Below are positions 36,511 through 52,691 of a stretch of 62,856 bases of DNA, piece after piece. Under the pieces are notes generated by a model. It ran no database searches. It was not told the DNA's origin and worked only from the letters and a program-made list of their open reading frames with translations. Made by a program: the position numbers and the translations under genes. Each line of letters opens with the position of its first letter. The stretch's first letter is position 1. This DNA comes from an uncultured Gammaproteobacteria bacterium (GTDB lineage: Bacteria > Patescibacteriota > Patescibacteriia > GCA-002772895). The stretch lies in contig CAZFZQ010000001.1 of assembly GCA_964522845.1 (NCBI GenBank), positions 6,559-69,414 of the forward strand, given 5' to 3'.

Positions 36511-36515
36511 CTTGA

Positions 36516-36649
36516 CCCAGTAAGACCAACTTTGGCTGTTTTTTCTCTAAATTTAGCTAAAATAAAGATTTGAGTTTGTAGAAATCAACTAACTTTTATC
36601 CAAAATCAAACTTTAAAAAAGACTTAATTTCCAAAGTTGTCTTACTGGG
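36516..36649. mobile_element. 134-bp ORF-less element with terminal inverted repeats (MITE-like), same TIR as the GIY-YIG element
   Basis: CCCAGTAAGACCAACTTTGG (36516-35) and CCAAAGTTGTCTTACTGGG (36631-49). Flanking direct repeat CTTGA (36511-15 and 36650-54). Confidence 0.5.
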
Positions 36650-36650
36650 C

Positions 36651-36679: not shown

Positions 36680-36706
36680 TCTCGCATATTTCAATAATGC
36701 TCAAAT

Positions 36707-37675: not shown

Positions 37676-37707
37676 AAGGCAGTTTGGGGTAGAATCGTAT
37701 TTATATG

Positions 37708-38016
37708 CCCGGTAAGACCAACTTTGACCTCTTGCTATGTTCTACGCTTACGTGCTTTTAAGCTTGAAAGATAAAGAAAAATATATCGGCTATACTGCCG
37801 ACTTAATAAAACGCATGGAAGAACATAGCAAGGGATTGAATTTTTCCACAAAATACAGAAGACCATTGAAACTTATTTATTACGAAGCATGTCTTGATGA
37901 AAGAGATGCTAAGCAAAGAGAAAAATATCTAAAAACGACAGCTGGACGAAGATTTTTAGCCAAAAGATTAAAATATTATCTTTTTTACTGATTATTTTCA
38001 AAGTTGTCTTACCGGG
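37708..38016. mobile_element. 309-bp TIR-bounded element carrying only a GIY-YIG nuclease gene
   Basis: CCCGGTAAGACCAACTTTGA (37708-27) and TCAAAGTTGTCTTACCGGG (37998-38016). Flanking direct repeat TATG (37704-07 and 38017-20). Confidence 0.55.
37737..37991 (+). CDS. stand-alone GIY-YIG nuclease domain protein (YhbQ/COG2827-like)
   Basis: 84 aa with YAYVL...KYIGYT (GIY...YIG), R/E/N core residues, and KRLKYY at the end. Confidence 0.85.
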   Translation: MFYAYVLLSLKDKEKYIGYTADLIKRMEEHSKGLNFSTKYRRPLKLIYYEACLDERDAKQREKYLKTTAGRRFLAKRLKYYLFY

Positions 38017-38017
38017 T

Positions 38018-39613: not shown

Positions 39614-39742
39614 ATTTTTCCTTATATTTATATTACCACACATTACCGGGAAATAGTTGATTTTTTTATATAATTATGCTTAGATGGATATAGGGGGAAG
39701 CAAGAACTTTGACAACCAAACCCCATAAAAAGGGAGAGGAAG

Positions 39743-42166
39743 ATGTCTGAAAATAAGACCGCAAGAGTAAGGGTAAGTTTGCTGCCGGCTATTATTTTGC
39801 CGGAGAAGGCGTTTTTACCATTGTCTTTTTGGTTGAAGTTGAAGGCGGAGACAGTCACAGATTATTTGGCTCTTCGCTATATTGCCAAAGGCGAGATCAC
39901 GGGCATCCATCAAGCGGATTATTTTGGCGGCCCGGTGGTTTTGATTCCCGGAAAACTTCGGCCGGCCGTGGACAAAACGGTTTCGTCTTCACGCAAGACC
40001 TTTGACGGAATTGCGGTTTTGGCAAAAATTAGAGAATGTATCAAGCTTGCCGATGGAGTTGAATACCGCGCGGCAATCTATCAAAAAATCCATGTTAAGC
40101 GATTGGTTTTTACCAACAATATGCATTTCGCGGAAATCAAAAATGCGTTTTTCCACGACGATGTTGATTCGGATGAAGCCAAAGAAATAAAGAGAATGAT
40201 CATCCGAATGCTTAACGAGCTTCAGCCATTTCAGTGTTTTATTAATGAGAAGCGGGTGCAAAAAATATGCGAAGCGGATAGCCCGCTGATTTTTTCTGAA
40301 CGGATGATTTATCATTTTAATAAACATTTGTTCAAAGAAGCGGGTGAGATTTTTAGCGATGAGGAGCTGGTCCGGTATTTTAACGAACCGAATACGGTAA
40401 AAAAATTAAAGGCGATTCTGAAAAAGCTGTCCATCGTTCTTACTAGCCAAAAGACAAAACTGGAAATTAATAAAAAAGTCGCGGCGGTAGCGGGATCTGA
40501 ACAAAGGAAATACCTACTGCGCCAAAGCGCGCAAACACTGCAAAATGAGCTGGATGAGCTTCAGCAGAAAGACCGGCCCGTAGACGATATTATGGAAAAG
40601 CTCAAAGCGCGTATCGAAGCGGCCGAAATGCCGGAAGAAGCTGAGAAAATGGCTAAGAAACAGCTTGAACGCCTAAAAATGATTCCGCGGGAATCTCCGG
40701 AATACGCTATGACCTTGACTTATCTGGATTGGCTCTGCGACTTGCCGTGGAATGGCAAAACCGAAGAAACCGTTGACATTATTTGGGCAAGGCAGATTTT
40801 GAACGGCGATCATTATGGGCTTGAAAAAGTAAAACGGCGGATTATTGAGCATTTGGCGATTTTGAAATTGAAACCCAATAAAAAGCCGCCGATTCTCTGT
40901 TTCGTCGGCCCTCCGGGTGTCGGAAAAACGTCTCTCGGAAAATCCATCGCTCATGCCATGGGCAGAAAATTTGTCCGCATTTCTTTGGGCGGTGTCCGCG
41001 ACGAAGCGGAAATCCGCGGGCATCGCCGGACCTATGTCGGCGCTCTTCCCGGACGGATTTTGCAGAACATAAAAAGAGCCGGAACAAAGAATGCGGTTTT
41101 CATGCTGGATGAAATTGACAAGCTTGCTTCGGATTTCAGCGGCGATCCAGCGTCCGCCTTGCTGGAAGTGCTGGATCCGGAGCAAAATTTCGCCTTCTCC
41201 GACCACTACTTGGAAGTTTCGTATGATTTGTCGCCAATATTTTTCATTTGCACGGCCAATCTTGAGGATCCCATTCCTCCGGCGTTGCACGACAGAATGG
41301 AATTTATCCGTTTGGCGGGATATACGCCCCAGGAAAAATACGAAATCGCCAAAAGGTTTTTGATCCCCAAGCAGATGGAAGAAAATGGCGTGGAAAAAAA
41401 GGGATTGAAAATTACCGATGGCGCGCTATATTCTTTGGTTGATAATTACACGCGGGAAGCCGGCGTACGCAATCTGGAACGGGAAATCGCTTCAGCCATC
41501 AGAAACCGCGCTGTTCTGATCGCGCAGAACAAAGAGTTCAAGACCGAAATTTGGGCAAGCGACCTTTTGGAAATTTTTGGTCCGGCGCGCTTTGAAATTA
41601 CCGGTGGCGTTGACATTCATATTCCGGGCGTGGTCACGGGTTTGGCCTGGACTGAAGTTGGCGGCTGCACTTTGATCATTGAATCGAGTAAAATGCCAAG
41701 AGCCGGCAATGAAGAAAATCTGAAATACACCGGCCGTCTGGGCGATGTGATGAAGGAATCAATTGAAGTGGCGTGGGATGTCGCTCGCGACAAGAGTAAT
41801 GTTAATGCATCGCTTTGGCAAAATTCCAGAATTCATCTGCATGTGCCTGAAGGCGCAACGCCCAAAGATGGCCCGTCTGCCGGAGTAGCTATGACCATAT
41901 CATTGATTTCGACACTTTCCAGCCGTTTAGTGCGTCCTGATTTGGCTATGACCGGCGAAATTACATTGCGTGGCGGCGGTACGATTCTGCCTGTGGGCGG
42001 AATCAAGGAAAAGCTTTTGGCTGCGCATCGCGCCGGCTATAAGTACGCGTTCATTCCTTCGCAAAACGAAAAAGATTTGTCCGAGGTCCCTGATGATGTC
42101 AAGCGGGAAATGGAAATCATGTTGGCGAAAAATATTGACGAAGTGATTAATTTTGCTCTTCAGTAA
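39743..42166 (+). CDS. lon: ATP-dependent Lon protease
   Basis: Walker A GPPGVGKTS, MLDEIDK, and protease-domain PKDGPSAGVAM with a downstream Lys. GGGAGAGG-type RBS. Confidence 0.95.
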   Translation: MSENKTARVRVSLLPAIILPEKAFLPLSFWLKLKAETVTDYLALRYIAKGEITGIHQADYFGGPVVLIPGKLRPAVDKTVSSSRKTFDGIAVLAKIRECIKLADGVEYRAAIYQKIHVKRLVFTNNMHFAEIKNAFFHDDVDSDEAKEIKRMIIRMLNELQPFQCFINEKRVQKICEADSPLIFSERMIYHFNKHLFKEAGEIFSDEELVRYFNEPNTVKKLKAILKKLSIVLTSQKTKLEINKKVAAVAGSEQRKYLLRQSAQTLQNELDELQQKDRPVDDIMEKLKARIEAAEMPEEAEKMAKKQLERLKMIPRESPEYAMTLTYLDWLCDLPWNGKTEETVDIIWARQILNGDHYGLEKVKRRIIEHLAILKLKPNKKPPILCFVGPPGVGKTSLGKSIAHAMGRKFVRISLGGVRDEAEIRGHRRTYVGALPGRILQNIKRAGTKNAVFMLDEIDKLASDFSGDPASALLEVLDPEQNFAFSDHYLEVSYDLSPIFFICTANLEDPIPPALHDRMEFIRLAGYTPQEKYEIAKRFLIPKQMEENGVEKKGLKITDGALYSLVDNYTREAGVRNLEREIASAIRNRAVLIAQNKEFKTEIWASDLLEIFGPARFEITGGVDIHIPGVVTGLAWTEVGGCTLIIESSKMPRAGNEENLKYTGRLGDVMKESIEVAWDVARDKSNVNASLWQNSRIHLHVPEGATPKDGPSAGVAMTISLISTLSSRLVRPDLAMTGEITLRGGGTILPVGGIKEKLLAAHRAGYKYAFIPSQNEKDLSEVPDDVKREMEIMLAKNIDEVINFALQ

Positions 42167-42174
42167 GAGTTGCA

Positions 42175-42203
42175 AGAGGCCCCCAAATCGGCCTCTTTTT
42201 TTA
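42175..42203 (+). terminator. rho-independent terminator of lon
   Basis: AGAGGCC - loop - GGCCTCT followed by T7. Confidence 0.7.
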
Positions 42204-42217
42204 TTTATTGAATTATT

Positions 42218-42303
42218 CCTCCCCTTAAGATAAGGGGAGGTTAGGTGGGGTTATGAATCTTTAACATAACTCCCCCCTAACCCCCTCTTACCTTAAGAGG
42301 GGG
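42218..42303. repeat. two inverted copies of a ~40-nt C5/G5 palindromic repeat family
   Basis: CCTCCCCTTAAGATAAGGGGAGGTTAGGTGGGGTTATGAAT (42218-58) and its inverted relative at 42265-42303. The same family occurs at 45196, inside thrS, and inside pheT. Confidence 0.7.
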
Positions 42304-42344
42304 TGCAGTAGCAATATTTTTTTGCTTATGATAATATTAATATT

Positions 42345-43526
42345 ATGCTAACTACTATATTATTATTCGTAATAATCTTAGGGCTTTTGGTTTTTGTCCA
42401 TGAATTCGGGCATTTTATTGTTGCCAAGAAAATGGGCGTGGGAGTGGAGGAATTTGGGTTCGGATTTCCTCCGCGTATGATTGGCGTCTACAAAGTCGGG
42501 AAAAAACTCCACTGGGTTTTTAAAAAGACGCCGTCTTTTGACGAAAGTATCGCCGGCGCCATGAAAAGAACGATTTATTCTTTGAATTGGATTCCGCTCG
42601 GCGGTTTTGTGAAAATCAAAGGCGAGGAAGGCGGCAGCCGTACGGAAGCCGACAGTTTTGCCTCCAAAGCCATTTGGAAAAGAATTGTCATTGTGGCTGC
42701 GGGCGTGACCATGAATTTGATTTTGGCGGCCGTGATTTTGTCCGTGGGTTTTGGCATCGGCATGCCTCAGGCCCTGGACAGGGACATGTCCGGCGCCAAA
42801 GTGAAAAATCAAAGCATGCAAATTATTTCCGTGGCAAAAAAATCCGCGGCGGACGCGGCCGGACTGCAAGCCGGCGACGAGATTTTATCCGTTGACGGCA
42901 AGAAATTAAATTTTAAAGAATTGCAGGCCTACGCCACGAGCCGGGTGGGCGAGCAAATTAATTATTCCATAAAAAGAGGCGGCGCAATATTGGATAAAAA
43001 AATTATTCCCGCGATTTTGCCGGAAACGGGTTATGGCGGCGTGGGCGTTGGTTTGATTGAAACCGGCATCGTTTCTTATCCGTGGTATTTGGCAATTTGG
43101 AAAGGAATTTTGGAAACAGGGTATTTGCTCAAAGAAATCGTGCTGGCGTTTTATACGCTCTTGCGCGATCTTATTTTGGGGCATGGCGCGGCTGTGGATT
43201 TGTCCGGTCCCGTGGGCATCGCGGTTTTGACCGGGCGCGTGGCGCGGCTTGGTTTTTCTTACATTTTGCAGTTTGCGGCCGTGCTCTCGGTTAATTTGGC
43301 CGTGGTAAATATTTTGCCTTTGCCCGCGCTGGATGGCGGACGGATTGTTTTTTTCATCGTGGAAAAAATCCGCCGCCGGCCAATAAATCAAAAAATAGAA
43401 TCCGCGGTGCACAACATCGGCTTCGCGCTTTTAATGCTCTTGGTCGCGGTTATCACTTATCGCGATTTTGTAAAATTCGGCGACAAGTTTCAGCATTTGT
43501 GGCAAAATATAATTAATAAGATATAA
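42345..43526 (+). CDS. rseP: RIP metalloprotease RseP (site-2 protease, M50)
   Basis: HEFGHFIVAK at the N-terminus, a central PDZ-like segment, and NILPLPALDGG. Confidence 0.9.
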   Translation: MLTTILLFVIILGLLVFVHEFGHFIVAKKMGVGVEEFGFGFPPRMIGVYKVGKKLHWVFKKTPSFDESIAGAMKRTIYSLNWIPLGGFVKIKGEEGGSRTEADSFASKAIWKRIVIVAAGVTMNLILAAVILSVGFGIGMPQALDRDMSGAKVKNQSMQIISVAKKSAADAAGLQAGDEILSVDGKKLNFKELQAYATSRVGEQINYSIKRGGAILDKKIIPAILPETGYGGVGVGLIETGIVSYPWYLAIWKGILETGYLLKEIVLAFYTLLRDLILGHGAAVDLSGPVGIAVLTGRVARLGFSYILQFAAVLSVNLAVVNILPLPALDGGRIVFFIVEKIRRRPINQKIESAVHNIGFALLMLLVAVITYRDFVKFGDKFQHLWQNIINKI

Positions 43527-43530
43527 AATT

Positions 43531-43640
43531 CCAATCTACGGATGAATCCAAATCTACGGATACCTACGGATAAATCATCCGAATAATTCGGATAAAATTC
43601 GTAATTTTATTTGTAGATTAGGATGAATTTGTAGATTAGG
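43531..43640 (+). other. ~110-nt imperfect long hairpin (candidate structured RNA, attenuator or repeat)
   Basis: AATCTACGGAT x2 on the left pairs with TTTGTAGATT x2 on the right. The apex is ATCCGAATAATTCGGAT. Several G:T positions pair only as G:U in + strand RNA. Confidence 0.5.
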
Positions 43641-43654
43641 ATTTTGATGTAATT

Positions 43655-44032
43655 ATGCCAGATAATTTGACGCCGGAAGAAACAAAAGACAACGAGCATT
43701 CTAAGGGCAGTTTGGATGAGGACACTGAAGGCACGGGTGTTGACGAGCCAAATCTTGACGAGGCGAGCTGGGATGATGAAGTTGAGCCCGAAGACCGCGA
43801 AGATTTTACCGCGGCAAAAATTAAATTTGAAGAATTGACGGACGAGGACCGCGAAATTTATTTGGAAATGGTTTCTTTGCGTGAAGAATTCGGCGAAGGC
43901 AGCGCGGAAAAAGAGGGGATGGAGGATATAAAAAAGTTAATCAGGAGATGTGAAGATATAAAATCAGAACTGATGGAAGGCACGCGGCCCAAATTTTTAG
44001 ATTTGATGATTAAAAAGTTAAAGGAATTATAA
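43655..44032 (+). CDS. highly acidic hypothetical protein (125 aa)
   Basis: Open frame with D/E-rich composition. No recognisable motif. Confidence 0.5.
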   Translation: MPDNLTPEETKDNEHSKGSLDEDTEGTGVDEPNLDEASWDDEVEPEDREDFTAAKIKFEELTDEDREIYLEMVSLREEFGEGSAEKEGMEDIKKLIRRCEDIKSELMEGTRPKFLDLMIKKLKEL

Positions 44033-44099
44033 TCCTCACTCTTGGTACTCCAAGGGGGAGGCGGCCTCTTGGCCGGTGGGGGATTTTTACCCTTTAGTA

Positions 44100-45184
44100 T
44101 GAAAACAAAACTGGAACAATTAAAAAATGACGCGAGCGCAGAACTCCAAAAAATCGCAACCGCGGAAGAATTGCGGGATTTTGAAATTAAAATTTTCGGG
44201 CGAAAAGGCAAGTTTAATGATTTGACTAAAGAATTGGGAACGCTTGCCATTGCGGAAAGAAAAGAAATGGGGCGCTTGGCAAACGAGGTGCGAGCTGTGT
44301 TGGAAAAAGCAATCGGCGAACGCCGGCAGGAGTTTGAATCGGCGCGTTTGAATGATTTGGCGAAAACCGAGTGGATTGACAAAACTTTACCCGGAGTAAA
44401 ACCCGAGCTGGGGCATTTGCATTTGATGACGCAGGCGATTGATGAAATTTCGGACATATTTATCCGATTGGGGTTTGTCCGCCGCCGATATCCGGAAATT
44501 GAATGGGATTGGTATGCTTTTGAATCATTGAATATGCCAAAGGACCATCCGGCGCGCGACGAATGGGAGACATTTTTTATTGATTTGCCCGAAGGGAATC
44601 CTTCTTCGCACAAGGCTACGAAGGACAGGGGGAAAATAGTTTTGACGCCGCACACGTCAAGCGGCCAGGTACGTGAAATGGAGCGCGGCGAACTTCCTAT
44701 TAGGATGATGAATATTTCCAAATGCTACCGCCGGCAAGCGGATGTGACGCACGTACCAATGTTTCATCAGTTTGAAGGGTTATTGATTGATAAAGGAGTT
44801 TCCATCGCGCACCTAAAAGGCACACTGGATTATTTCGCGCGTGAATTTTTTGGCGCGTCACGGAAAACGCGTTTGCGCCCGTTTCATTTTCGTTTTACCG
44901 AACCGTCATTTGAAATTGATATTTCCTGCGATGTTTGCAATGGTACGGGAAAATTATCAAATGGCGACAAATGCCGTGTTTGCAAACAGGGCTGGTTGGA
45001 ATTGGGCGGCGCGGGCATGGTTCATCCGAATGTTTTGCGCGCCGGGGGCATTGATCCGAAAAAATACAACGGCTTTGCTTTTGGCTGGGGCGTGGAGCGC
45101 ACCTTTATGATGAAAGAAGGAATGAAAATTGACGACCTCCGCATACTTTATAAAAATGATTTGAGGTTTATCAGGCAGTTTTGA
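44100..45184 (+). CDS. pheS: phenylalanine--tRNA ligase alpha subunit
   Basis: ATG at 44100 (MKTKLEQLK). Class II motifs, including HPARDEWETFF and FRFTEPSFEIDI. Confidence 0.95.
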
Positions 45185-45195
45185 TTCCGACTTTT

Positions 45196-45236
45196 CTCCC
45201 CCTTAAGGTAAGGGGGAGTTAGAGGGGGTTATGAAT
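45196..45236 (+). repeat. copy of the C5/G5 palindromic repeat
   Basis: CTCCCCCTTAAGGTAAGGGGGAGTTAGAGGGGGTTATGAAT with a 10-bp perfect stem. Its ATG supplies the first in-frame start of the next ORF. Confidence 0.75.
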
Positions 45237-46847
45237 ATGGAAAAATTACCTAAAAAAGAACAGCCCGAACAAACCGTTAATTATACTGTGGAAGGAATTT
45301 TTGAAACCGAAGACGGCGGAAAATTTGAACGGCGGAAGTATGAATATCGCGATGCCGCGGGCGAAGTTCAGGCCGAAGGCGTAGTGGAATTATTTGAAGG
45401 CGAGGCGGCGATAAGCGAGGAATTAGCGGATGAGAAAAAAAACGGAATAGGCAGAGCGTTAAAGAGTTTTATTTTGAGAAGTAAGCAAGCGGAAGAGGGG
45501 AGCGAAGAATTTGATTTGATGAAAGTTGCCAATTCTCCGGGTGTTAATGTGATAGTTGCCGACCGGCCGCTGAAAAATTATCGTTATGGGGATACGAGCC
45601 GGTGCGTAACATCGCCTCCGCTTGATTCCCCGTTTAATATCGCCATATTGCTTCACGAGCTTGGACATGCCGGGCAATTCGAAGATGGGCGCGAGGCGAA
45701 AAAAACAGGCAGGGAAGAAAGCAAAGTGGAAAAATTTTTGCCTGCCGCTTCGTGGGCAAGGGATTTGAAAGCCGGAAAGCTAACGGCTGACGCAAAAACC
45801 GTTGCGGCAAATATTAAAAAAATTTTTGAAATAGATCCTGACGCGCGGTTGCTCATTCCTCCGGAAACGTTCCAAGCCGCCATAAAAAAATTGCGCGACA
45901 TAGAAGGAAAAATAATGAAAGTTGAAAATGATAAAGCGGGAATAAAAAATGAGCAGGATGAAAAAAAAGAATATCAGAGCTATGCTTTGATTGATGTTAT
46001 CGGCAAAGGAATGAAAGAAAGATTTTTTCCGCTGGATGAAATGATAGAGCGGGTAAAGCGCGAACTTAACGAGGGAGGTTTTGATGATGAGACAGTTATG
46101 CAGGACTGGAAAGCAAGACTGGAAGCCGCAGGAATTTTTTTAAGCCATCAAAAAAAAGAAGCCAAAGAAGAAGAAAAAGAAAAGCATTGGCGTTTTGGAG
46201 AAGAAAGACCCGAGCCGCCGGAACTCGGCGCGGAAGATATAAAAAATTTGCACGACATAAAAACGGTTCTTAAGACAATAAGAAGTTTGCGCTACGATGA
46301 GTCAAAGATAAATTATGAAGGAGGAAAACGGCAAATGACGGTTCGGTTTCCATTGGGACTGGATATCGGCGATAAATTTTCCGCTAACCTGCTATTAGAT
46401 GTTGAACCCGAGGATTTTGCGGATTTTGAAGTAAGAATCAGCGAATTAGAGCAGGAAACGGGTGAATTGGAAAGAAAAAAATCTCCCATTGATGAAAAAA
46501 TAAAAAATTTGGAATCCGAATATCAAAAGGTTTTAGACGAGCTGGAAGGCGTTATCAAATTGCCCGTTAAAGTTGAGGAGCGCGACGCCACTTATCGCGC
46601 TATGCGGTGGCTCACGCAATTAAGAGATAAAAGCGGCATTGACTTTTTGCATAAAGAATTTATTCCGCCAGTCGGAGGTACGCCGAAGAGCGATTGCGGC
46701 GACTCGGTCCGGGGCGGCGTCCACGAATTGTTGGAAAAAGAAAGACCGCATAAGCCGCGGGTGATATTGAAAAAAGCGCTCGGCACATACAAAGCCGAAC
46801 ACCCGCCGCATACGCAGAGTTTTTGGGGGAAGAAGGTAAAAAAATAA
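45231..46847 (+). CDS. hypothetical 538-aa protein with an HExxH motif and coiled-coil, charged regions
   Basis: NIAILLHELGHAGQ motif with E/K-rich stretches. An alternative start lies at 45237. Confidence 0.55.
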   Translation: MNMEKLPKKEQPEQTVNYTVEGIFETEDGGKFERRKYEYRDAAGEVQAEGVVELFEGEAAISEELADEKKNGIGRALKSFILRSKQAEEGSEEFDLMKVANSPGVNVIVADRPLKNYRYGDTSRCVTSPPLDSPFNIAILLHELGHAGQFEDGREAKKTGREESKVEKFLPAASWARDLKAGKLTADAKTVAANIKKIFEIDPDARLLIPPETFQAAIKKLRDIEGKIMKVENDKAGIKNEQDEKKEYQSYALIDVIGKGMKERFFPLDEMIERVKRELNEGGFDDETVMQDWKARLEAAGIFLSHQKKEAKEEEKEKHWRFGEERPEPPELGAEDIKNLHDIKTVLKTIRSLRYDESKINYEGGKRQMTVRFPLGLDIGDKFSANLLLDVEPEDFADFEVRISELEQETGELERKKSPIDEKIKNLESEYQKVLDELEGVIKLPVKVEERDATYRAMRWLTQLRDKSGIDFLHKEFIPPVGGTPKSDCGDSVRGGVHELLEKERPHKPRVILKKALGTYKAEHPPHTQSFWGKKVKK

Positions 46848-46875
46848 TTTGAGGTTTATTAAACAATTTTAAAAT
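46839..46875 (+). repeat. decayed duplicate of the pheS 3' end
   Basis: AAAAATAATTTGAGGTTTATTAAACAATTTTAA here versus AAAAATGATTTGAGGTTTATCAGGCAGTTTTGA at 45152-45184. All differences are G/C to A/T transitions. Confidence 0.6.
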
Positions 46876-46888
46876 TAATTTTTTGAAT

Positions 46889-47368
46889 ATGTCCAAACAA
46901 GAACAAGTGCCAACAATGTCCGACGAAGAAATGGCGCAGAGAGAAAAAGAAGCTGCGCAATTATTATCGCCAGAGGATGAATTAGACCCTGAAAAACAAG
47001 AAATGCGCGGAAGATTCTTAGAATCTTTAAAGCGCGGCAGCATTCAAGAGTTGAAAAAGTTTTTATATCATCGCGGAACAGACCGGTATGATTTTATAGA
47101 TTTTGAAAATCCCGAAGTTATGGAGGCGGCACAGATCGGCCTTGAATACGTGAAAGAAAACGAACATAAATTGGGATTGAGCCGCACGCTTGATTTTATA
47201 AAAATGATGAAAGAAGAGGGGATTGAAGAAGAGAACGAAGAAGAAAAGACGGAAAGAATCGGCGATATAAGAGCGGAAATAAAAGGCAGTGGTGAAGAGA
47301 ATAGTTTAGATTCTGAAAAAACTAAAAAAGCGGCTAGAAAATGGAAAGCCAGAAGAGGATTGCGTTAA
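46889..47368 (+). CDS. acidic hypothetical protein (159 aa)
   Basis: ATG at 46889 (MSKQEQV). E/K-rich with no recognisable motif. Confidence 0.5.
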   Translation: MSKQEQVPTMSDEEMAQREKEAAQLLSPEDELDPEKQEMRGRFLESLKRGSIQELKKFLYHRGTDRYDFIDFENPEVMEAAQIGLEYVKENEHKLGLSRTLDFIKMMKEEGIEEENEEEKTERIGDIRAEIKGSGEENSLDSEKTKKAARKWKARRGLR

Positions 47369-47385
47369 AAAAATTATAAATTTAT

Positions 47386-47706
47386 ATGCGCTGGATTTTA
47401 CCTTTATCGCTTTTGATTGTTTTTGAAATTATTGCGGATATTTTCGCCAAAGAGTATTCAATCCACGGAACATGGTTGAGGTGGCTTGCGGCAATTAGCG
47501 CATATGTGATTGCCAATATTTTTTGGCTTATAGCCATTCGGCATGGCTCCGGTTTAGCGCGAGGCGCGATAATTTTTTCTGTCTCGTCCGCAGTTATTGC
47601 CGTTGTCCTGGGGCTGCTTTTGTATAAAGAGCAAGTGGGCAAAGCACAAATTGCAGGCGCAGTTTTAGGTATTATTTCCTTAATTTTGATATTTTGGAAC
47701 GATTAA
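47386..47706 (+). CDS. 4-TM SMR/DMT-like small membrane transporter (EmrE/ArnE-like)
   Basis: 106 aa with four hydrophobic helices and a conserved Glu in TM1 (FEIIADIFAK). Confidence 0.6.
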   Translation: MRWILPLSLLIVFEIIADIFAKEYSIHGTWLRWLAAISAYVIANIFWLIAIRHGSGLARGAIIFSVSSAVIAVVLGLLLYKEQVGKAQIAGAVLGIISLILIFWND

Positions 47707-47710
47707 TTTT

Positions 47711-47752
47711 ATGAACATTCTTGTTTCCTACAATTGGCTGAAAATAAAATGA
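47711..47752 (+). repeat. displaced duplicate of the pheT 5' end (13 codons then a stop)
   Basis: ATGAACATTCTTGTTTCCTACAATTGGCTGAA matches 49360-49391 with 1 mismatch. Confidence 0.8.
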
Positions 47753-47756
47753 TATT

Positions 47757-48098
47757 ATGCCGATAAAAATTATAAAAGATAAAATTACTTTGGATGAGTT
47801 AAAAATTTTAGCCAAAGAACGCTACGGCGATATGGTTAAAGTGGTTTTAGATATTGAAAAAGAAATTATGGCCGCCGGTGCAGAAATGCATGTTGATGAA
47901 GAACAGCTTTTGCTGGAGAACGGATCAGAGCAGAAAAATTTATGGGGTATAAATTTGTATCCGGATGGAAAAGAGTTTGTAGAGTTTGATTCAATGATAA
48001 ACATCAGGCCTTGGCAGCATAATCGTTCGCGGGGAGTGGAAGATAAAGATACGCAAAATAAAATCAAAAAAATTATTGATAAATTAGTTGATAAATAA
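47757..48098 (+). CDS. small conserved-looking hypothetical protein (113 aa)
   Basis: Open frame, with a 1-nt gap to the next small ORF. No catalytic motif recognised. Confidence 0.55.
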   Translation: MPIKIIKDKITLDELKILAKERYGDMVKVVLDIEKEIMAAGAEMHVDEEQLLLENGSEQKNLWGINLYPDGKEFVEFDSMINIRPWQHNRSRGVEDKDTQNKIKKIIDKLVDK

Positions 48099-48099
48099 C

Positions 48100-48429
48100 A
48101 TGGAATATAACTTTCAACATAAGGAGCTCGCCGCCGGCCGATGGAAAAAATTTACTTTTGCTGAACAGATGGGGAATATCGGCAGTGAAGTAAGCCGAGC
48201 AATAAAGTGGCGCGGGCGAGAAGAAAAATATTTTAATAATGCAGTTGATCGCGCGCTGGAGTTGATTGATTTAACGATTGCCGACCGGCGCTGGAGAAGC
48301 CGACTAAAAGAAATTTTACTTTTGCGAGAGGTTTTGTGCGACATTGTCTTTGGCGAGAAACAATATAAAACCGATTTGGTGGATTTAGATAAATATTTAT
48401 TTAATTTCGCGGTTCTGGCGCGCAGATAA
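48100..48429 (+). CDS. small all-helical hypothetical protein (109 aa)
   Basis: ATG at 48100 (MEYNF). The AEQMGNIGSEVSRAI segment vaguely resembles MazG-like helical NTP-PPases (weak). Confidence 0.5.
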   Translation: MEYNFQHKELAAGRWKKFTFAEQMGNIGSEVSRAIKWRGREEKYFNNAVDRALELIDLTIADRRWRSRLKEILLLREVLCDIVFGEKQYKTDLVDLDKYLFNFAVLARR

Positions 48430-48436
48430 GTTTAAT

Positions 48437-49363
48437 ATGTTGAAAAGTTTATTCAACAAATTGATAGAATCTTACATTTTCGTTTTGTTGACGGCTCTTT
48501 TGGTCGGCATAATTTTTTCAAAGTACGCGGTTAAGGTTGCGCCGTATAATACGATTTTTTTGGGAATAATTTTTTTCTTCAGCGCGCTCAAGATTGACTT
48601 GAAAGAGGTTGCGGGATATCTTAAGGATAAAAAGATGATTGTCGTAGTTAATTTGTTCATGTTGTTCTTTTTACCTATTATCGTTTATTATCTGACACTC
48701 GGGGTCTATCCGGATTTGGCAATTGCATTTTTGATTTTAGCCGCCATGCCCTGCGGTATGACAACTCCGCTTTTATCGGAAATATGCGGAGGCCGGCAAG
48801 GTCTTGCCCTGGTCTTAGTTGTTACAACATCGCTTTTAGCTCCGTTTACCGCGCCTTTGGTAATTAAATTGGTTGCGGGAACGGCCGTTACGGTTAGTTT
48901 TTACACAATGTTCCTTTCTTTGGCAAAAGTTATTTTTATCCCTTTTGTTCTGGCCAACATCATAAAATTTTTCTGGCATCATAGGATAAAGGCGACTTAT
49001 TTTACTTTTAAGCCGATTTCCATAATTTTTCTCGCGCTTTTGATTATGGGCACGGTGGCGCAAAAAGCCGCCGTAATAATGAACGGATTGCAGGGAAAAT
49101 TTTTGATTTATGTTGTTTTGCTTTTTGCGCTGTTTGTGGTTTTGCACTTTTTTGGATATTTCACCATTTTTTGGCGCGAGAAAAAAGACAGGGTGACGGT
49201 TACGATTTGTCTCACATATATGAATTTTACTCTGGCAATATATCTTGCGGGTAATTTCTTTAATGAACCGAATGTTATCGTGCCGGTTGTACTTTCCATT
49301 TTACCCTGGTCGCTAATGATACTCCCGTTCAAATATTTAATGAAAAAATATAAATTTATATGA
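48437..49363 (+). CDS. 9-10 TM transporter, bile acid:Na+ symporter (BASS)/ACR3-like
   Basis: 308 aa, polytopic. The family assignment is from overall topology and length only. Its stop overlaps the pheT ATG. Confidence 0.5.
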   Translation: MLKSLFNKLIESYIFVLLTALLVGIIFSKYAVKVAPYNTIFLGIIFFFSALKIDLKEVAGYLKDKKMIVVVNLFMLFFLPIIVYYLTLGVYPDLAIAFLILAAMPCGMTTPLLSEICGGRQGLALVLVVTTSLLAPFTAPLVIKLVAGTAVTVSFYTMFLSLAKVIFIPFVLANIIKFFWHHRIKATYFTFKPISIIFLALLIMGTVAQKAAVIMNGLQGKFLIYVVLLFALFVVLHFFGYFTIFWREKKDRVTVTICLTYMNFTLAIYLAGNFFNEPNVIVPVVLSILPWSLMILPFKYLMKKYKFI

Positions 49364-51927
49364 ACATTCTTGTTTCCTACAATTGGTTGAAGGAATATCT
49401 GAAAACCGACTTGCCGCCGGAAGAATTTGCGGCCAAAGTTTCGCTTTGCGGGCCGTCGGTGGAGCGTATCCATCATCAGGGAACTGATTTGGATAAAATT
49501 GTTGTGGGAAAAATTTTGGGAGTGGAAAAACATCCTAATGCTGATAAATTGCGTTTGGTAGAAGTTGATATCGGCCCCACTTCGCCAAGGCTTCGCGGGA
49601 CAAGCCATAAACTCAAAGTGGTTTGTGGCGGGTCAAATTTGCAGGGCGGGATGAAAGTGGCGGTGGCGCTTTCCGGCGCAAAAATAAAATGGCACGGAGA
49701 AGGGGAGCTTGTGGAATTGAAACCAACAGAAATCCGCGGCGTGAAAAGCGAGGGAATGATCTGCGCGGCCGAAGAAATCGGGCTTGGCGCCGAGTTTCCA
49801 AAAAAAGATGAAAAAGAAATTTTAGATTTGTCGGATTTGTACGCGAAGCCGGGCACGCCCGGTAGTGAAACTTTGGTTCGCCGCTCTGGCGGCGCAAGAT
49901 TGGAATCTACCAAAGTTCTACTACCGGGCACGCCGCTTGCGGAAGCATTAAATTTGAAAGATGTTGTTTTTGATATTGAAGTGACAACCAACCGGCCGGA
50001 CATGATGTCAATTTTGGGAATTGCGCGCGAGGCGGGAACGATTTTGAAATCGCCGTTTACGATGCCGAAAATTGCGTCGCTAAAAGGTAGGGATGGCGGC
50101 GTTTCTTTGAAGGTAAAAAATGAAGAGCCGGAATTGTGCTATCGCTATCAGGCAATTGTGATAGAAGGCGTAAAAATAAAAAATTCTCCATGGTGGCTGA
50201 AACAAAAATTGGCCGCCGCGGGTACGCGCTCAATAAATAATGTCGTGGATATTACTAATTTTGTTTTGTGGGAAATGGGTCAGCCGCTGCACGCTTTTGA
50301 TTATGAAAAATTGGAAGGGAAAAATATTATTATCCGCAAGGCAAAAAAGGGCGAAAAAATAAAAGCGCTGGATGGATTGGATTATAAATTAAAAGAAGAA
50401 ATGCTCGTGATTGCCGACGGCAAAAAACCCGTGGCCATTGCCGGTGTTATGGGCGGAGAGGCGACGGGCGTGACGGATGGCACGCACACGATTGTGCTGG
50501 AAGCCGCGACTTTTGACCCCGTGTCCGTTCGCAGGACTTCGCGAGCTCTAAATTTGCGTAGCGATTCATCTAATCTATTTGAAAAAGGATTATCCACCGA
50601 GGCAACTAGCGTTGCTTTGGCGCGGGCGGCGGAACTGGTGATTCAACTTGCTGGCGGAGGAATTGCGAGCAAAGTTTTTGATTTGCGTGAAAAAGATTTT
50701 AAACCAAATGCCGTGGTCATGTCCGTGGAAAAAGCCAATAAAATAATGGGCATAGAGTTGGAGGCCGAGGCAATGGCGGATATTTTGAAACGGCTGGGAT
50801 TTGCCGTGAGCGTTAAAGGTAATGAGATAAAAGCCAAAGCGCCCTATTGGCGCGAAAATGATATGGAGATAGAAGAGGACTTGATTGAAGAAATAGCGCG
50901 GGTTTACGGCTACCATCGGTTGCCGTCCGTGCTTCCGGCCGGATCTCCTCCTTTTGGAAAAGGGAGGGACGGAGGGATGTTCCAATGGGAAAAAACCGCC
51001 AAACAGCTCGCTGCATCCGCGGGCTATGACGAAATTATTTCTTATGGAATGATTAGCAAAGGCATGATGGACGCGGCGGGCGAAAAAGACGCCATAAAGA
51101 TCGCCAATCCATTATCGGTGGATTTGGAATATATGCGCACCTGTCTTATGCCCGGACTTTTGCAAGCTGTGGCGCAAAATGAAAATAATTTTCCATCTGC
51201 AAAAATTTTTGAACTTTCCCGCGTTTACACGCCCGCCAAAAAAGGCGTCCGCCAGCTGGCGGATTTGCCGAAAGAAGAATTGCATTTTGCGGGGATAAAT
51301 TATGGCAAGTCGTCCAAGGGTGAATTATTTTATGAAGCCAAGGGTTTTGCGGAAATGATTTTGGAAAAATTTGGCATTTTTTCGTCTGTCATTCCCGCGG
51401 AGGCGGGAATCCAGTTCCATGAATCCGACGATAAAAATTTTCATCCCGCGCGCTCCGTTGATATATATTTCAAAAAAGATTGGATTGGCGCTTATGGCGA
51501 AGTGCACCCCATAACGGCTAAAAATTTTGGCCTATCCTGCGAAGCCGGACTTTTCTATTTTGATTTTGACGCCCTGCTCGCTCATGCCAAATCGCACAAA
51601 GCATACGCGCCCATTCCGGAATTTCCGGGCGTGAAGCGCGACATTTCTTTTATTGTTGATAAAAAAATGGAATACGAAAAAATAAAACAAACCGTGGCGT
51701 CGGCCCACGCGCTCGTCGCCGAAGTGGAGCCGTTTGATGTGTATGAACCATCCTTCGCTAAAGCTTCGGATGGCAGGGGGCAAATTCCTATGGGTAAGAA
51801 AAGTATTGCGCTTCATATTCTTTTCCAATCTGCCAATCGCACATTGGAAGCCAAAGAAGCGGACGAGGCATTTGAAAAAATAGTTTCCGCATTGAAAAAG
51901 GATTTTGGCGCGGAAATCAGAATGTGA
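49360..51927 (+). CDS. pheT: phenylalanine--tRNA ligase beta subunit
   Basis: MNILVSYNWLKEYL start, tRNA-binding domain, B3/4 and B5 regions, TTNRPD. 855 aa including several repeat-derived insertions. Confidence 0.95.
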   Translation: MNILVSYNWLKEYLKTDLPPEEFAAKVSLCGPSVERIHHQGTDLDKIVVGKILGVEKHPNADKLRLVEVDIGPTSPRLRGTSHKLKVVCGGSNLQGGMKVAVALSGAKIKWHGEGELVELKPTEIRGVKSEGMICAAEEIGLGAEFPKKDEKEILDLSDLYAKPGTPGSETLVRRSGGARLESTKVLLPGTPLAEALNLKDVVFDIEVTTNRPDMMSILGIAREAGTILKSPFTMPKIASLKGRDGGVSLKVKNEEPELCYRYQAIVIEGVKIKNSPWWLKQKLAAAGTRSINNVVDITNFVLWEMGQPLHAFDYEKLEGKNIIIRKAKKGEKIKALDGLDYKLKEEMLVIADGKKPVAIAGVMGGEATGVTDGTHTIVLEAATFDPVSVRRTSRALNLRSDSSNLFEKGLSTEATSVALARAAELVIQLAGGGIASKVFDLREKDFKPNAVVMSVEKANKIMGIELEAEAMADILKRLGFAVSVKGNEIKAKAPYWRENDMEIEEDLIEEIARVYGYHRLPSVLPAGSPPFGKGRDGGMFQWEKTAKQLAASAGYDEIISYGMISKGMMDAAGEKDAIKIANPLSVDLEYMRTCLMPGLLQAVAQNENNFPSAKIFELSRVYTPAKKGVRQLADLPKEELHFAGINYGKSSKGELFYEAKGFAEMILEKFGIFSSVIPAEAGIQFHESDDKNFHPARSVDIYFKKDWIGAYGEVHPITAKNFGLSCEAGLFYFDFDALLAHAKSHKAYAPIPEFPGVKRDISFIVDKKMEYEKIKQTVASAHALVAEVEPFDVYEPSFAKASDGRGQIPMGKKSIALHILFQSANRTLEAKEADEAFEKIVSALKKDFGAEIRM
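49858..49928. mobile_element. 71-bp TIR element inserted in frame in pheT (75 nt with the duplicated CACG)
   Basis: CCCGGTAGTGAAACTTTGG (49858-76) and CCAAAGTTCTACTACCGGG (49910-28). CACG flanks it at 49854-57 and 49929-32. It encodes PGSETLVRRSGGARLESTKVLLPGT. Confidence 0.55.
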
Positions 51928-51939
51928 TATAATTAATTT

Positions 51940-52224
51940 ATGTATCCGGAGGACATACTAAATTACATATTAGCCGGTTCCATCGCCATACTGACGATAA
52001 TGTTGGCGGTTTTATTGTTTTATCTTATTTCCATCGCCCGCAATGTCCGCTGGTTTGTAAAAGGCGCCAAAGACAAAGTGGAAAAAATTACTGACGGCAT
52101 TGATTTTATTAAAGATAAGATAGGGCACAGCGCCTCTCAGCTTGGTTTTATCGCCCAAGCCGTGGAACGCCTGATTGGCTCTTTTGTCACTTCCAGCCCG
52201 GGAAAGAAGAAAAAAAAGAAATGA
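51940..52224 (+). CDS. small membrane-anchored protein with a poly-Lys tail
   Basis: 94 aa with one N-terminal TM helix, then a helical region and GKKKKKK at the C-terminus. Confidence 0.5.
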   Translation: MYPEDILNYILAGSIAILTIMLAVLLFYLISIARNVRWFVKGAKDKVEKITDGIDFIKDKIGHSASQLGFIAQAVERLIGSFVTSSPGKKKKKK

Positions 52225-52230
52225 CATTTC

Positions 52231-52264
52231 TGTGTCATCCCGGACTACGATCCGGGATCCAGTT
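52231..52264 (+). repeat. palindromic repeat TGTCATCCCGGA..TCCGGGATCCAGTT
   Basis: 8-bp stem ATCCCGGA/TCCGGGAT. The same family is copied inside pheT at 51385-51416. Confidence 0.65.
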
Positions 52265-52265
52265 T

Positions 52266-52284
52266 CCGCCATGGGCGGTTTTTT
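52266..52284 (+). terminator. rho-independent terminator
   Basis: CCGCC-ATG-GGCGG followed by T6. Confidence 0.65.
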
Positions 52285-52288
52285 GATG

Positions 52289-52316
52289 CAAAAAAAATCA
52301 GCGGGGCGGCGCTGAT
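52289..52316 (-). terminator. rho-independent terminator for the minus-strand gene pair
   Basis: ATCAGCG-GGGCGG-CGCTGAT, with an A8 run on the + strand that reads as a T-run on the - strand. Confidence 0.6.
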
Positions 52317-52376
52317 TTGAATTAGTATTTGTGGTGATCCTAAGAAAGAAAATTTTCCATGTTATCGGCTATTGGG

Positions 52377-52691
52377 TCATCGCAATCCAGAATATAAGTT
52401 CAGCCCTTCCAGAATAAATATGTGGCCGATCAATAGCAACGCGGAGATATAATAGATGGGATTTACGAACCCTTCCATCACATTTTCCGGCGTAATTATT
52501 TGGCTCTCGGCAAGTTCTTGGATGCCCCGCGCAATTTCCGCCAGATCGCCAAAAATGAATTGTATTTTTTCGGCAGCGAGCAACATCGTTTTATCTAAAA
52601 GATGAGCCACTCCTGATAGCGCCAGCAACGTTAGCGCTATGCCCAGAACGGATATGGCTAAGCCGAAAATGATTTGCAGCGCGCGGCGCAT
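52377..52691 (-). CDS. small membrane protein (104 aa)
   Basis: Two or three hydrophobic segments. Supported only by the open frame. Confidence 0.45.
   Translation of the reverse strand: MRRALQIIFGLAISVLGIALTLLALSGVAHLLDKTMLLAAEKIQFIFGDLAEIARGIQELAESQIITPENVMEGFVNPIYYISALLLIGHIFILEGLNLYSGLR

What the first reader, a model, noticed from the sequence alone, without database searches (positions are those of the whole stretch)
49854..49932. 75-nt TIR element (relative of the GIY-YIG element ends) inserted in frame in pheT
CCCGGTAGTGAAACTTTGG and CCAAAGTTCTACTACCGGG share the CCCGGTA...ACTTTGG ends of the GIY-YIG element. They enclose 33 nt containing a further CGCCGC/GCGGCG hairpin, and they are flanked by duplicated CACG (within a longer GGGCACGCC repeat). 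Element plus duplication is exactly 75 nt, or 25 codons (PGSETLVRRSGGARLESTKVLLPGT). Removing it leaves AKPGTPLAEALNLKD, a plausible uninterrupted PheT sequence.
Basis: seen in the sequence. Interest (0 to 1): 0.7.

Follow-up and report, generated by a model that had tools for sequence, protein, structure and literature searches.

The report
Mobile hairpin element inside pheT
A 71-base mobile hairpin element has landed inside the essential gene pheT of an uncultured Patescibacteria bacterium without breaking the reading frame, and it belongs to a large, apparently undescribed family that is built around a tiny GIY-YIG nuclease gene and normally inserts exactly on the start codons of genes.

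Summary
pheT (49360-51927) carries a 71-nt element (49858-49928) with 19-nt inverted ends (17/19), two small inner hairpins and a duplicated CACG. Element plus duplication is 75 nt, or 25 codons.

- Of 116 PheT orthologs, only the window and one ~84%-identical relative carry the 25 residues. Two equally close relatives have the uninterrupted site.
- A metagenome scan found 66 distinct insertions with the same two asymmetric ends (size classes ~37, ~70, ~130 and ~305 nt), nearly all with 4-bp duplications.
- The ~305-nt members encode an ~85-aa GIY-YIG nuclease that is 58-60% identical to the one in the window.
- Most copies sit on TATG, where the ATG is a gene's start codon. Minor classes sit on -35 boxes (TTGA) and on stop codons.

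The pheT copy is therefore a rare near-cognate, intragenic landing. It survived because it is a multiple of 3 in length, has no stop codon in the frame these ends are normally read in, and lies in a disordered loop.

Mobilisation by the nuclease is inferred, not shown. The kind of event (in-frame MITE) is known, for example from Rickettsia; the element family appears new.

The parts
49360..51927 (+). pheT (phenylalanyl-tRNA synthetase beta subunit), the host gene, 855 aa
   Evidence: The ORF was found, translated and matches five PheT Pfam domains. The AlphaFold2 model has mean pLDDT 90.8 and TM-scores of 0.72-0.79 to bacterial PheRS beta structures.
49854..49857 (+). Left copy of the 4-bp target-site duplication, CACG
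   Evidence: Read directly from the sequence. The 4-bp duplication length is set by the family: TATG/CATA in 34 of 66 insertions.
49858..49876 (+). Left terminal inverted repeat, the 'GTGA' end: CCCGGTAGTGAAACTTTGG
   Evidence: The first 18 nt are identical in dozens of copies elsewhere.
49879..49894 (+). Internal hairpin 1: CGCCGC-TCTG-GCGGCG
   Evidence: It is conserved in L001 and L028.
49897..49908 (+). Internal hairpin 2: AGAT-TGGA-ATCT
   Evidence: Predicted in the minimum-free-energy folds.
49910..49928 (+). Right terminal inverted repeat, the 'GTAG' end: CCAAAGTTCTACTACCGGG
   Evidence: The same asymmetric pairing of a GTGA end with a GTAG end is seen in nearly all family members.
49929..49932 (+). 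Right copy of the target-site duplication, CACG
   Evidence: Read directly from the sequence.
49849..49859 (+). Left copy of the 11-nt direct repeat CCGGGCACGCC. The right copy is at 49924-49934. It consists of the 4-bp duplication plus 7 nt where the target happens to match the element termini.
   Evidence: In L001 the left copy reads CCGGGCATGCC.
37708..38016 (+). Relative in the window: a 309-nt element with terminal inverted repeats that carries an 84-aa GIY-YIG ORF (37737-37991). It is flanked by TATG on both sides, and the right TATG holds the start codon of a glycosyltransferase gene (38018-39163).
36516..36649 (+). Relative in the window: a 134-nt ORF-less element (CCCAGTAAGACCAACTTTGG ... 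CCAAAGTTGTCTTACTGGG), flanked by CTTGA, sitting on the -35 box of a TTGACA-17-TATACT promoter-like site.

Best explanation
The 71-nt block is a non-autonomous, MITE-like copy of a family of small elements with terminal inverted repeats. The full-length members (~305 nt) carry a single gene, an ~85-aa GIY-YIG nuclease of the UPF0213 type.

The family inserts with a 4-bp target duplication, overwhelmingly at TATG. The ATG of that TATG is usually the start codon of a host gene, so the inverted repeat is normally read by ribosomes in the frame ATG|CCC GGT AGT..., and it is free of stop codons in that frame.

In pheT the element landed on a near-cognate site, CACG, which differs from TATG by two transitions. 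It has the same orientation and codon phase (ACG|CCC GGT AGT) as a canonical start-codon insertion. Three things let the insertion survive in an essential gene:
- 71 + 4 = 75 nt is a multiple of 3.
- The frame is open throughout.
- The site is a flexible loop between the N-terminal tRNA-binding module and the B3/4 domain.

The result adds 25 residues (PGSETL...KVLLPGT) instead of inactivating the gene.

Shown: mobility of the family, the empty sites, the target rules, the shared ends with GIY-YIG elements, and the loop location. Inferred: that the GIY-YIG nuclease is what mobilises these elements, that the insert is translated, and that it is tolerated rather than useful.
For: Insertion in pheT
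- The 25 aa are present in 2 of 116 PheT sequences.
- Empty sites are seen at the DNA level in L002 and L123.
- The filled site occurs in two independent assemblies and differs at 4 positions within the element, plus 1 in the left TSD copy, so it is not an assembly artefact.

Family
- 66 distinct insertions share the same asymmetric ends, in size classes of ~37, 68-77, 115-162 and 303-309 nt.
- L028 is ~90% identical to the pheT copy, sits at another locus and has the duplication TCAA.

Partner gene
- pheT-type ends flank GIY-YIG ORFs in L067/L113 and L013. These proteins are 58-60% identical to the window's GIY-YIG protein.
- 2261 homologs were found with E <= 1e-5. About 75 of the top 120 have called N-termini of the form MP[SGR]xxT..., which is the duplicated ATG plus the inverted repeat read in frame into the nuclease.

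Target
- 34 of 66 duplications are TATG/CATA.
- 36 of 66 insertions meet a strict start-codon criterion, against 11.8% of all TATG sites in the same loci.

Tolerance
- In the AlphaFold2 model (mean pLDDT 90.8) the only long stretch with pLDDT < 50 is residues 165-183, inside the insert.
- Solved PheRS beta chains align to residues 4-149 and 188-240 and skip the insert.
- Five other PheT lineages carry unrelated 10-15-aa inserts 6 residues upstream.
Against: - No GIY-YIG element with the exact pheT-type ends is in the window. The window's own copy belongs to a sister subfamily (AAGAC(C) instead of GTGA/GTAG), so the partner is known only from other metagenomes.
- No known transposase is a lone ~85-aa GIY-YIG domain, and nothing here shows catalysis.
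- CACG is not the canonical target.
- 7 of the 11 repeated nucleotides come from an unexplained match between the target (CCGGG...CC) and the element tips.
- Between the window and L001 the insert is far better conserved than the gene around it: third codon positions 96% against 63%, and only 0.6% of 25-codon windows are as similar. A neutral passenger would not show this.
- Translation of the insert is not demonstrated.
Confidence: 0.85

Rival explanations
1. The insert is not a neutral passenger. It is kept by selection at the nucleotide level, either as a structured RNA/DNA hairpin that modulates pheT expression, or as a still-recognisable element that is corrected against other genomic copies by gene conversion.
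For: - Nucleotide identity between window and L001 is 94.7% in the insert against 80.4% for the gene. Among codons that encode the same residue in both, 95.5% are identical codons in the insert against 66% elsewhere.
- Both 18-nt ends are still identical to the family consensus.
- The only change next to the stem is compensatory: T..A in the window, C..G in L001 and L028. The same two pairs covary across subfamilies, with 7 double changes each.
- Other embedded repeats in pheT are also nearly identical between the two lineages (27/30 and 33/33).
Against: - Three of the four substitutions inside the insert change the amino acid, so the peptide itself is not strongly constrained.
- No regulatory role can be read from the sequence.
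- Two equally close relatives do well without the insert.
- This reading is compatible with the main explanation rather than exclusive of it.
Confidence: 0.3
2. The window and L001 acquired the element independently at the same spot, because the pheT site imitates an element end (CCGGG|CACG|CC; the empty site in L123 even reads CCCGGTAcG) and is therefore a hot spot. Under this reading there was no single ancestral insertion.
For: - The four closest PheT lineages form an unresolved quartet: informative amino-acid sites 14/12/5 and nucleotide sites 52/60/53.
- The element is much less diverged than the flanking synonymous sites.
- The two copies differ by a paired T-A versus C-G change that also distinguishes free copies such as L028.
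- The 7 extra repeated nucleotides match the element termini.
Against: - Both copies have the same orientation, the same junctions and the same 71-nt length, whereas relatives elsewhere are 68-73 nt.
- The window and L001 also share two other insertions in pheT.
- No third independent hit at this site was found among 116 PheT sequences.
Confidence: 0.15
3. The hairpin is removed from the pheT transcript by cleavage at the base of the stem and religation, so the protein is made without the 25 residues. In that case the element behaves like a minimal intron.
For: - The stem brings the two copies of the direct repeat together at its base, so precise removal would restore the ancestral reading frame.
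- The strong conservation of the stem would fit an RNA-level requirement.
Against: - No such pathway is known in bacteria, and nothing in the window points to one.
- If the element were spliced out there would be no need for it to be a multiple of 3 and free of stops, yet it is both.
- Family members at start codons show no frame constraint (frames 0/1/2 = 11/17/13), so the multiple-of-3 length of the only intragenic copy looks like a filter imposed by translation.
Confidence: 0.04
4. The block is not an insertion at all. It is a native lineage-specific loop, a local duplication or an assembly chimera.
For: The flanking 11-nt direct repeat could in principle arise by slippage. The region is a loop that varies in length among PheT lineages.
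Against: - The ends are identical over 18 nt to dozens of elements in unrelated contexts and organisms.
- Clean empty sites exist in relatives.
- Two independent assemblies contain it.
Confidence: 0.01

Closest known systems
Rickettsia palindromic elements (RPEs)
   Same: Short palindromic repeats inserted in frame into unrelated, often essential protein-coding genes. They add a peptide segment that is compatible with the fold (review PMC10969869, read).
   Different: - RPEs are ~100-150 bp, are restricted to Rickettsia, and have no known autonomous partner or clear TIR/TSD signature. Nearly half of the copies of some RPE families are intragenic.
- Here the element is 71 nt with sharp 19-nt TIRs and a 4-bp TSD, and it shares its ends with a nuclease-encoding element.
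- Intragenic copies of this family are the exception: 1 site among 66.
Bacterial MITEs derived from insertion sequences (for example Correia elements of Neisseria, MITEAba12)
   Same: Small size, terminal inverted repeats, target-site duplication, many copies, whole-element hairpin when transcribed, and frequent location next to gene starts where they can affect expression.
   Different: - Known MITEs share their ends with DDE-type (or IS200/IS605 HUH-type) insertion sequences.
- Here the only associated gene is an ~85-aa GIY-YIG nuclease.
- The target is a functional punctuation mark (the ATG of start codons; also TTGA of -35 boxes and TAA stop codons) rather than a simple TA or AT-rich site.
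Free-standing and intron-encoded GIY-YIG homing endonuclease genes (for example I-TevI, phage T4 seg genes)
   Same: A selfish element whose only product is a GIY-YIG nuclease. Its insertion is arranged so that host gene function is preserved.
   Different: - Homing endonucleases copy themselves into one cognate allele through double-strand-break repair. They have no terminal inverted repeats, no target-site duplication and no miniature derivatives, and they carry DNA-binding domains.
- This family has TIRs, a 4-bp TSD and MITEs, inserts at many unrelated genes, and its protein is little more than the catalytic domain.
UPF0213 / COG2827 small GIY-YIG proteins (BH0048, PDB 1zg2; EF2693, PDB 1ywl)
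   Same: These are the nearest solved relatives of the nuclease encoded by the full-length elements (E = 4e-4 and 1e-3). They have the same single-domain size.
   Different: The similarity is weak. Those proteins have no assigned function, and I found no report describing them as mobile.
IS200/IS605-type palindrome-associated elements and REP/RAYT systems
   Same: Hairpin-forming ends with conserved imperfections (here an invariant G.T pair and an A/C mismatch) and a short specific target tetranucleotide.
   Different: Those systems insert without a target duplication, have subterminal hairpins rather than terminal inverted repeats, and depend on an HUH (Y1) transposase. None of these features applies here.

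Membership tests
MITE (miniature inverted-repeat transposable element) | Small element with no coding capacity for its own mobilising enzyme | tested here: met
   The element is 71 nt and contains no ORF of its own; it is read only as part of pheT.
MITE (miniature inverted-repeat transposable element) | Terminal inverted repeats | tested here: met
   The ends are 19 nt and 17/19 complementary. The stem is invariant in 14 short-class copies.
MITE (miniature inverted-repeat transposable element) | Target-site duplication of fixed length | tested here: met
   CACG flanks the pheT copy on both sides. 4-bp duplications occur in the large majority of the 66 insertions.
MITE (miniature inverted-repeat transposable element) | Multiple copies at unrelated loci, and filled/empty site polymorphism | tested here: met
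   66 distinct insertions were found. L028 is ~90% identical to the pheT copy at another locus. Empty pheT sites exist in L002 and L123.
MITE (miniature inverted-repeat transposable element) | Ends shared with an autonomous element whose enzyme mobilises it in trans | tested here: inconclusive
   Identical ends flank GIY-YIG ORFs in L067/L113 and L013. Whether this nuclease performs or triggers transposition was not testable.
Rickettsia palindromic elements | In-frame insertion into a protein-coding gene with a translated peptide | tested here: met
   75 nt = 25 codons with an open frame. Translation itself is inferred.
Rickettsia palindromic elements | Membership of one of the RPE sequence families of Rickettsia, ~100-150 bp, with frequent intragenic copies | tested here: not met
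   The host is a Patescibacteria bacterium (names). The size is 71 nt. Only 1 intragenic site was found among 66. Rfam gave no family hit. No direct sequence comparison with RPE consensus sequences was run.
GIY-YIG homing endonuclease element | Element encodes a GIY-YIG nuclease | tested here: not met
   The pheT copy has no such ORF. Only its ~305-nt relatives do (PF01541, E = 1e-13).
GIY-YIG homing endonuclease element | Spreads to one cognate empty allele by break repair, without TIRs or TSD | tested here: not met
   Insertions occur at the starts of many unrelated genes, with TIRs and 4-bp duplications.
IS200/IS605-derived palindromic elements / REP | No target duplication; subterminal hairpins; associated HUH transposase | tested here: not met
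   A TSD is present, the repeats are terminal, and the associated gene is GIY-YIG.
Intein or intron | Self-splicing motifs, or removal from the transcript or protein | not testable with these tools
   25 aa is far below intein size. There is no Rfam intron hit. Removal at the RNA level cannot be tested from sequence alone.

The most novel reading that the evidence does not exclude
The pheT copy is an off-target footprint of a new class of prokaryotic mobile element. Its full-length members are ~300-bp units with CCCRGTA... inverted ends whose only gene is an ~85-aa GIY-YIG nuclease. They insert with a 4-bp duplication exactly on the ATG of host genes, so that the host's ribosome-binding site and start codon are read through the inverted repeat into the nuclease (called N-termini MPGS.../MPSN...), while the duplicated ATG restores the host gene. 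Miniature derivatives use the same rule, and also use -35 boxes and stop codons. The ends have therefore evolved to be translatable, and that is what let one copy become part of an essential protein.
Probability: 0.5. Interest if true: 0.85.

Novelty: new variant of a known kind. Interest (0 to 1): 0.66.

Why it matters
In-frame survival of a mobile hairpin in an essential aminoacyl-tRNA synthetase shows how selfish DNA can lengthen proteins in the very small genomes of Patescibacteria. PheT in this clade is peppered with such inserts.

The pheT copy also gives a handle on a widespread element family that I could not find described. The family has thousands of GIY-YIG homologs and dozens of miniature copies, and it places itself on start codons, -35 boxes and stop codons.

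If the small GIY-YIG protein is the mobilising enzyme, this would be a transposition-like system based on a nuclease fold not used by any known insertion-sequence family. It would also be a natural system that targets the first codon of genes.

The family is a practical annotation problem too. Gene callers fuse the inverted repeat to the nuclease or to host genes, producing N-termini such as MPGS.../MPSN....

Tried and rejected
- **Peptide search in the 5.8-billion protein index.** I searched with the three open-frame translations of the element, looking for other in-frame copies. It returned no candidates, not even the known PheT pair, so it is uninformative.
- **30-aa window peptide against 1.84 billion representative proteins.** 0 hits at E <= 0.001. 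This argues that intragenic copies of this subfamily are rare, but the query is short and the library is clustered at 50% identity.
- **Rfam scan of 36000-52500.** Only sub-threshold microRNA-like hairpin matches.
- **Viral-contig scan for the end sequence.** One hit, which on inspection was a chance match with no partner end.
- **Translational coupling or frame constraint in copies at start codons.** None found. The frames of the upstream ATG relative to the gene ATG are 11/17/13, and the short upstream reading frames stop at variable distances.
- **L112 as a second intragenic copy.** Rejected. Its 71-nt element sits on the tsaD start codon, and the orthologous copy in L004 is 70 nt.
- **Order of events among the four closest PheT lineages.** The quartet is unresolved.
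- **Literature.** Searches combining GIY-YIG with inverted repeats, target-site duplication, MITE, Patescibacteria/CPR and UPF0213/YhbQ found no description of this family. The searchable library lacks most subscription journals, so absence is not proof.
Full report
**1. What is in the sequence**

The window is from a Patescibacteria (CPR) bacterium; the closest named PheT homologs are from Patescibacteria/Parcubacteria. The ORF at 49360-51927 is pheT: 855 aa with all five PheT Pfam domains.

- Left end CCCGGTAGTGAAACTTTGG at 49858-49876.
- Right end CCAAAGTTCTACTACCGGG at 49910-49928. The two are inverted repeats, 17/19 complementary.
- 33 nt between them, holding the hairpin CGCCGC-TCTG-GCGGCG and a second small hairpin.
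- CACG on both sides.

The direct repeat is in fact 11 nt long (CCGGGCACGCC, 49849-49859 and 49924-49934), because the target happens to match the element tips on both sides of CACG. Element plus duplication is 75 nt, or 25 codons, with an open frame (residues 167-191).

Chance does not explain this. The end motif is expected 0.03 times in the window. The 79-nt stretch folds into a three-way junction at -43.6 kcal/mol as RNA (z = -8.0) and -28.7 kcal/mol as DNA (z = -8.45). Rfam has nothing like it.

**2. It is an insertion**

- In alignments of 16 and then 116 PheT sequences, only the window protein and P0002 have the 25 residues. P0002 reads PGSETLARRSGGVRLESAKVLLPGT. Every other sequence reads AKPGTPLAxAL straight through.
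- At the DNA level, the relative L001 has the same 71-nt element at the same junctions, with 4 substitutions. The equally close relatives L002 and L123 have clean empty sites: GCCAAACCCGGCGCGCTG and GCCAAGCCCGGTACGCCA.
- Two independent assemblies therefore contain the filled allele, which rules out an assembly artefact.
- The four lineages are about 84% identical to one another and their branching order is unresolved. I cannot say whether there was one ancestral insertion followed by precise loss (the 11-nt repeats around a strong hairpin would favour that) or two insertions.

**3. It belongs to a mobile family**

- The window holds two relatives. One is a 309-nt element at 37708-38016 that encodes an 84-aa GIY-YIG protein (PF01541, E = 1e-13). 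The other is a 134-nt ORF-less element at 36516-36649.
- A paired-end pattern scan of one genome per species found two more short copies, in other CPR-like contigs.
- A metagenome scan for the 18-nt end found 118 contig stretches.
- Pairing ends in these loci gave 79 elements, or 66 distinct insertions. Nearly every one has one 'GTGA' end and one 'GTAG' end.
- Lengths fall into four classes: 37-38 nt (just the two ends), 68-77 nt, 115-162 nt and 303-309 nt.
- L028 (73 nt) has the same internal hairpin and spacer as the pheT copy (alignment A3, about 90% column identity). It lies in an intergenic promoter region with the duplication TCAA. The same element at an unrelated site is direct evidence of mobility.
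- In 14 short copies the stem is invariant, including a G.T pair at position 10 and an A/C mismatch at position 11. The two pairs just inside the stem covary, with 7 double changes each.

**4. The partner gene**

- The 303-309-nt members (L013, L067 = L113) carry the exact pheT-type ends around an 85-87-aa GIY-YIG ORF. These proteins are 58-60% identical to the window's GIY-YIG protein.
- The nearest solved structures are the function-unknown UPF0213 proteins BH0048 and EF2693. NCBIfam gives only sub-threshold matches to group I intron endonucleases.
- The protein family is large: 2261 homologs at E <= 1e-5.
- About 75 of the 120 best homologs have called N-termini such as MPSNKTSQ-, MPGSTTSN- or MPGNSTPM-. 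That is an ATG followed by the inverted repeat, read in frame into the nuclease.
- In loci L124-L133 this is explicit. A host GGAGG ribosome-binding site and ATG sit directly after an ABC ATPase gene and run into CCCAGTAAC... and on into the nuclease. In some samples a second, ORF-less element follows in tandem. Each unit is separated by TATG, and the last TATG starts the permease gene.

**5. Target rules**

- Duplications are 4 bp in the great majority. 34 of 66 are TATG/CATA, and several more are ATG-centred (ATGA, ATG, CATG).
- In nearly all of these the ATG begins a long ORF that reads away from the element. By a strict criterion 36 of 66 are start-codon insertions, against 11.8% of all TATG sites in the same loci.
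- The window's own GIY-YIG element follows the rule. Its right-hand TATG contains the start codon of a GT4 glycosyltransferase gene at 38018.
- Minor classes are equally orderly. TTGA/TCAA copies sit on -35 hexamers followed by 17 nt and a -10 box; this includes the window's 134-nt element next to TTGACA-17-TATACT at 36651-36679. TAA/TTA copies sit on stop codons.
- The pheT site CACG is two transitions from TATG. It has the commoner orientation (GTGA end first, 31 of 44) and the same codon phase as a start-codon insertion (ACG|CCC GGT AGT against ATG|CCC GGT AGT).
- I therefore read the pheT copy as a near-cognate, off-target landing. It is the only clearly intragenic insertion among the 66.
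- Peptide searches for further in-frame copies found none, but they were weak tests.

**6. Why pheT tolerates it**

- The family's ends are open in the frame that follows the duplicated codon. This fits their normal exposure to ribosomes that start at the captured ATG.
- 71 + 4 is a multiple of 3, whereas sibling copies are 68-73 nt. Copies at start codons show no frame bias (frames 11/17/13). The multiple-of-3 length of the intragenic copy therefore looks like a survival filter, not a property of the family.
- The AlphaFold2 model of PheT is confident overall (mean pLDDT 90.8). Its only long low-confidence stretch is residues 165-183, inside the insert.
- The model superposes on bacterial PheRS beta structures with TM-scores of 0.72-0.79. 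Sequence alignment to the solved chain 2rhs_B covers residues 4-149 and 188-240 and skips the insert.
- Five other PheT lineages carry unrelated 10-15-aa inserts six residues upstream.
- This PheT also carries several other short GC-rich repeat inserts, each of which shows up as a dip in model confidence.

**7. What does not fit a simple neutral-passenger story**

- Between the window and L001 the insert is 94.7% identical at the nucleotide level, against 80.4% for the gene. Third codon positions are 96% identical against 63%. Only 0.6% of 25-codon windows are as similar.
- Both ends still match the family consensus exactly.
- The one change beside the stem is compensatory: T..A in the window against C..G in L001.
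- Two other embedded repeats behave in the same way.
- Possible causes are selection on the hairpin, correction against other genomic copies, or more recent or independent acquisition at a site that mimics an element end. I cannot separate these possibilities.

**8. Comparison with known systems, and novelty**

- As an event, this is what Rickettsia palindromic elements are known for: in-frame palindromic insertions in housekeeping genes (PMC10969869).
- As an element, it meets every structural criterion of a MITE.
- It is not an RPE, and it is not an IS200/IS605 or REP-type element. Its family does not behave like GIY-YIG homing endonuclease genes, because it has TIRs, a TSD, many target genes and miniature derivatives.
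- I found no paper describing TIR/TSD elements or MITEs tied to a small GIY-YIG nuclease in prokaryotes, nor insertion on start codons. The searchable library is incomplete.
The kind of event is known; the element family and its target logic appear new. The role of the nuclease remains an inference.

Noticed in passing
Loci L004-L122; window 37708-38020: Family-wide rule: most copies carry a TATG/CATA duplication whose ATG is the start codon of a host gene reading away from the element. 36 of 66 meet a strict criterion, against 11.8% of control TATG sites. The window's GIY-YIG element sits on the start codon of the glycosyltransferase gene 38018-39163.
   Followed up: yes
Window 36516-36679; L015, L028, L064, L077, L115: Copies with a TTGA/TCAA duplication sit exactly on -35 hexamers (TTGACA or TTGATT, then 17 nt, then a TATAAT-like box). 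The duplication regenerates the -35 box next to its -10 box. In the window this is TTGACA-17-TATACT at 36651-36679.
   Followed up: partly
L008:6288-6363; L038:5702-5835: Copies with a TAA/TTA duplication sit exactly on the stop codon of the upstream ORF.
   Followed up: partly
P0122-P0240; L124:1480-1985: About 75 of the 120 closest GIY-YIG homologs have called N-termini MP[SGR]xxT..., which is the host ATG plus the inverted repeat read in frame into the nuclease. In L124 the host GGAGG + ATG drives this fusion. A second, ORF-less 157-nt element sits in tandem, with units separated by TATG, so each insertion recreates its own target.
   Followed up: partly
Window 49576-49605, 51382-51414, 51748-51789; also 32814-32843: pheT carries other short in-frame GC-rich repeat inserts: PTSPRLRGTS, SSVIPAEAGIQ and PSFAKASDGRGQIP. 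They are present or absent patchily among relatives, and sometimes the same insert is at the same site in distant lineages (P0009, P0006). The first recurs in reverse orientation, in frame, in a GT2 glycosyltransferase gene at 32814-32843 (LAPRSLGEVG). Between the window and L001 these repeats are 27/30 and 33/33 identical, although the gene overall is 80% identical.
   Followed up: partly
Window 47707-47742 and 49356-49391: The first 32 nt of pheT plus 4 upstream bases are duplicated (36 nt, 94% identical) 1.65 kb upstream, leaving a remnant MNILVSYNWLKIK*. Three genes lie between the copies: DUF5674, an unknown ORF and an SBF-family transporter. This looks like a cassette inserted at the pheT start. 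pheS (44042-45184) lies 4.2 kb upstream of pheT; in the relatives it is closer, with two or three other genes in between.
   Followed up: no
Window 42216-42305 and 45194-45236: Another palindromic repeat, unrelated to the pheT element: TCCTCCCCTTAAGATAAGGGGAGGTTAGGTGGGGTTATGAAT and its inverted partner. A half copy ends at the ATG of ORF 45231. It gave only spurious microRNA-like Rfam matches.
   Followed up: no
L068:1240-1760; L062:640-1240: Other small GIY-YIG ORFs in the fetched contigs lack these inverted repeats. They are bracketed instead by a duplicated tRNA 5' half (L068), or lie next to a tRNA gene with repeated flanks (L062). This suggests that different small GIY-YIG genes in these bacteria are mobile in different ways.
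   Followed up: no
L049:4455-4492; L054:4923-4959 (= L069): There are 37-38-nt copies consisting of only the two inverted ends back to back, flanked by TATA. They may be the minimal unit or footprints of internal deletion.
   Followed up: no
L004:1800-1869 and L112:1940-2010: Orthologous insertions on the tsaD start codon in two related organisms differ in length (70 and 71 nt). The 71-nt version is in frame and would add a 25-aa N-terminal extension if translated from the upstream ATG.
   Followed up: partly
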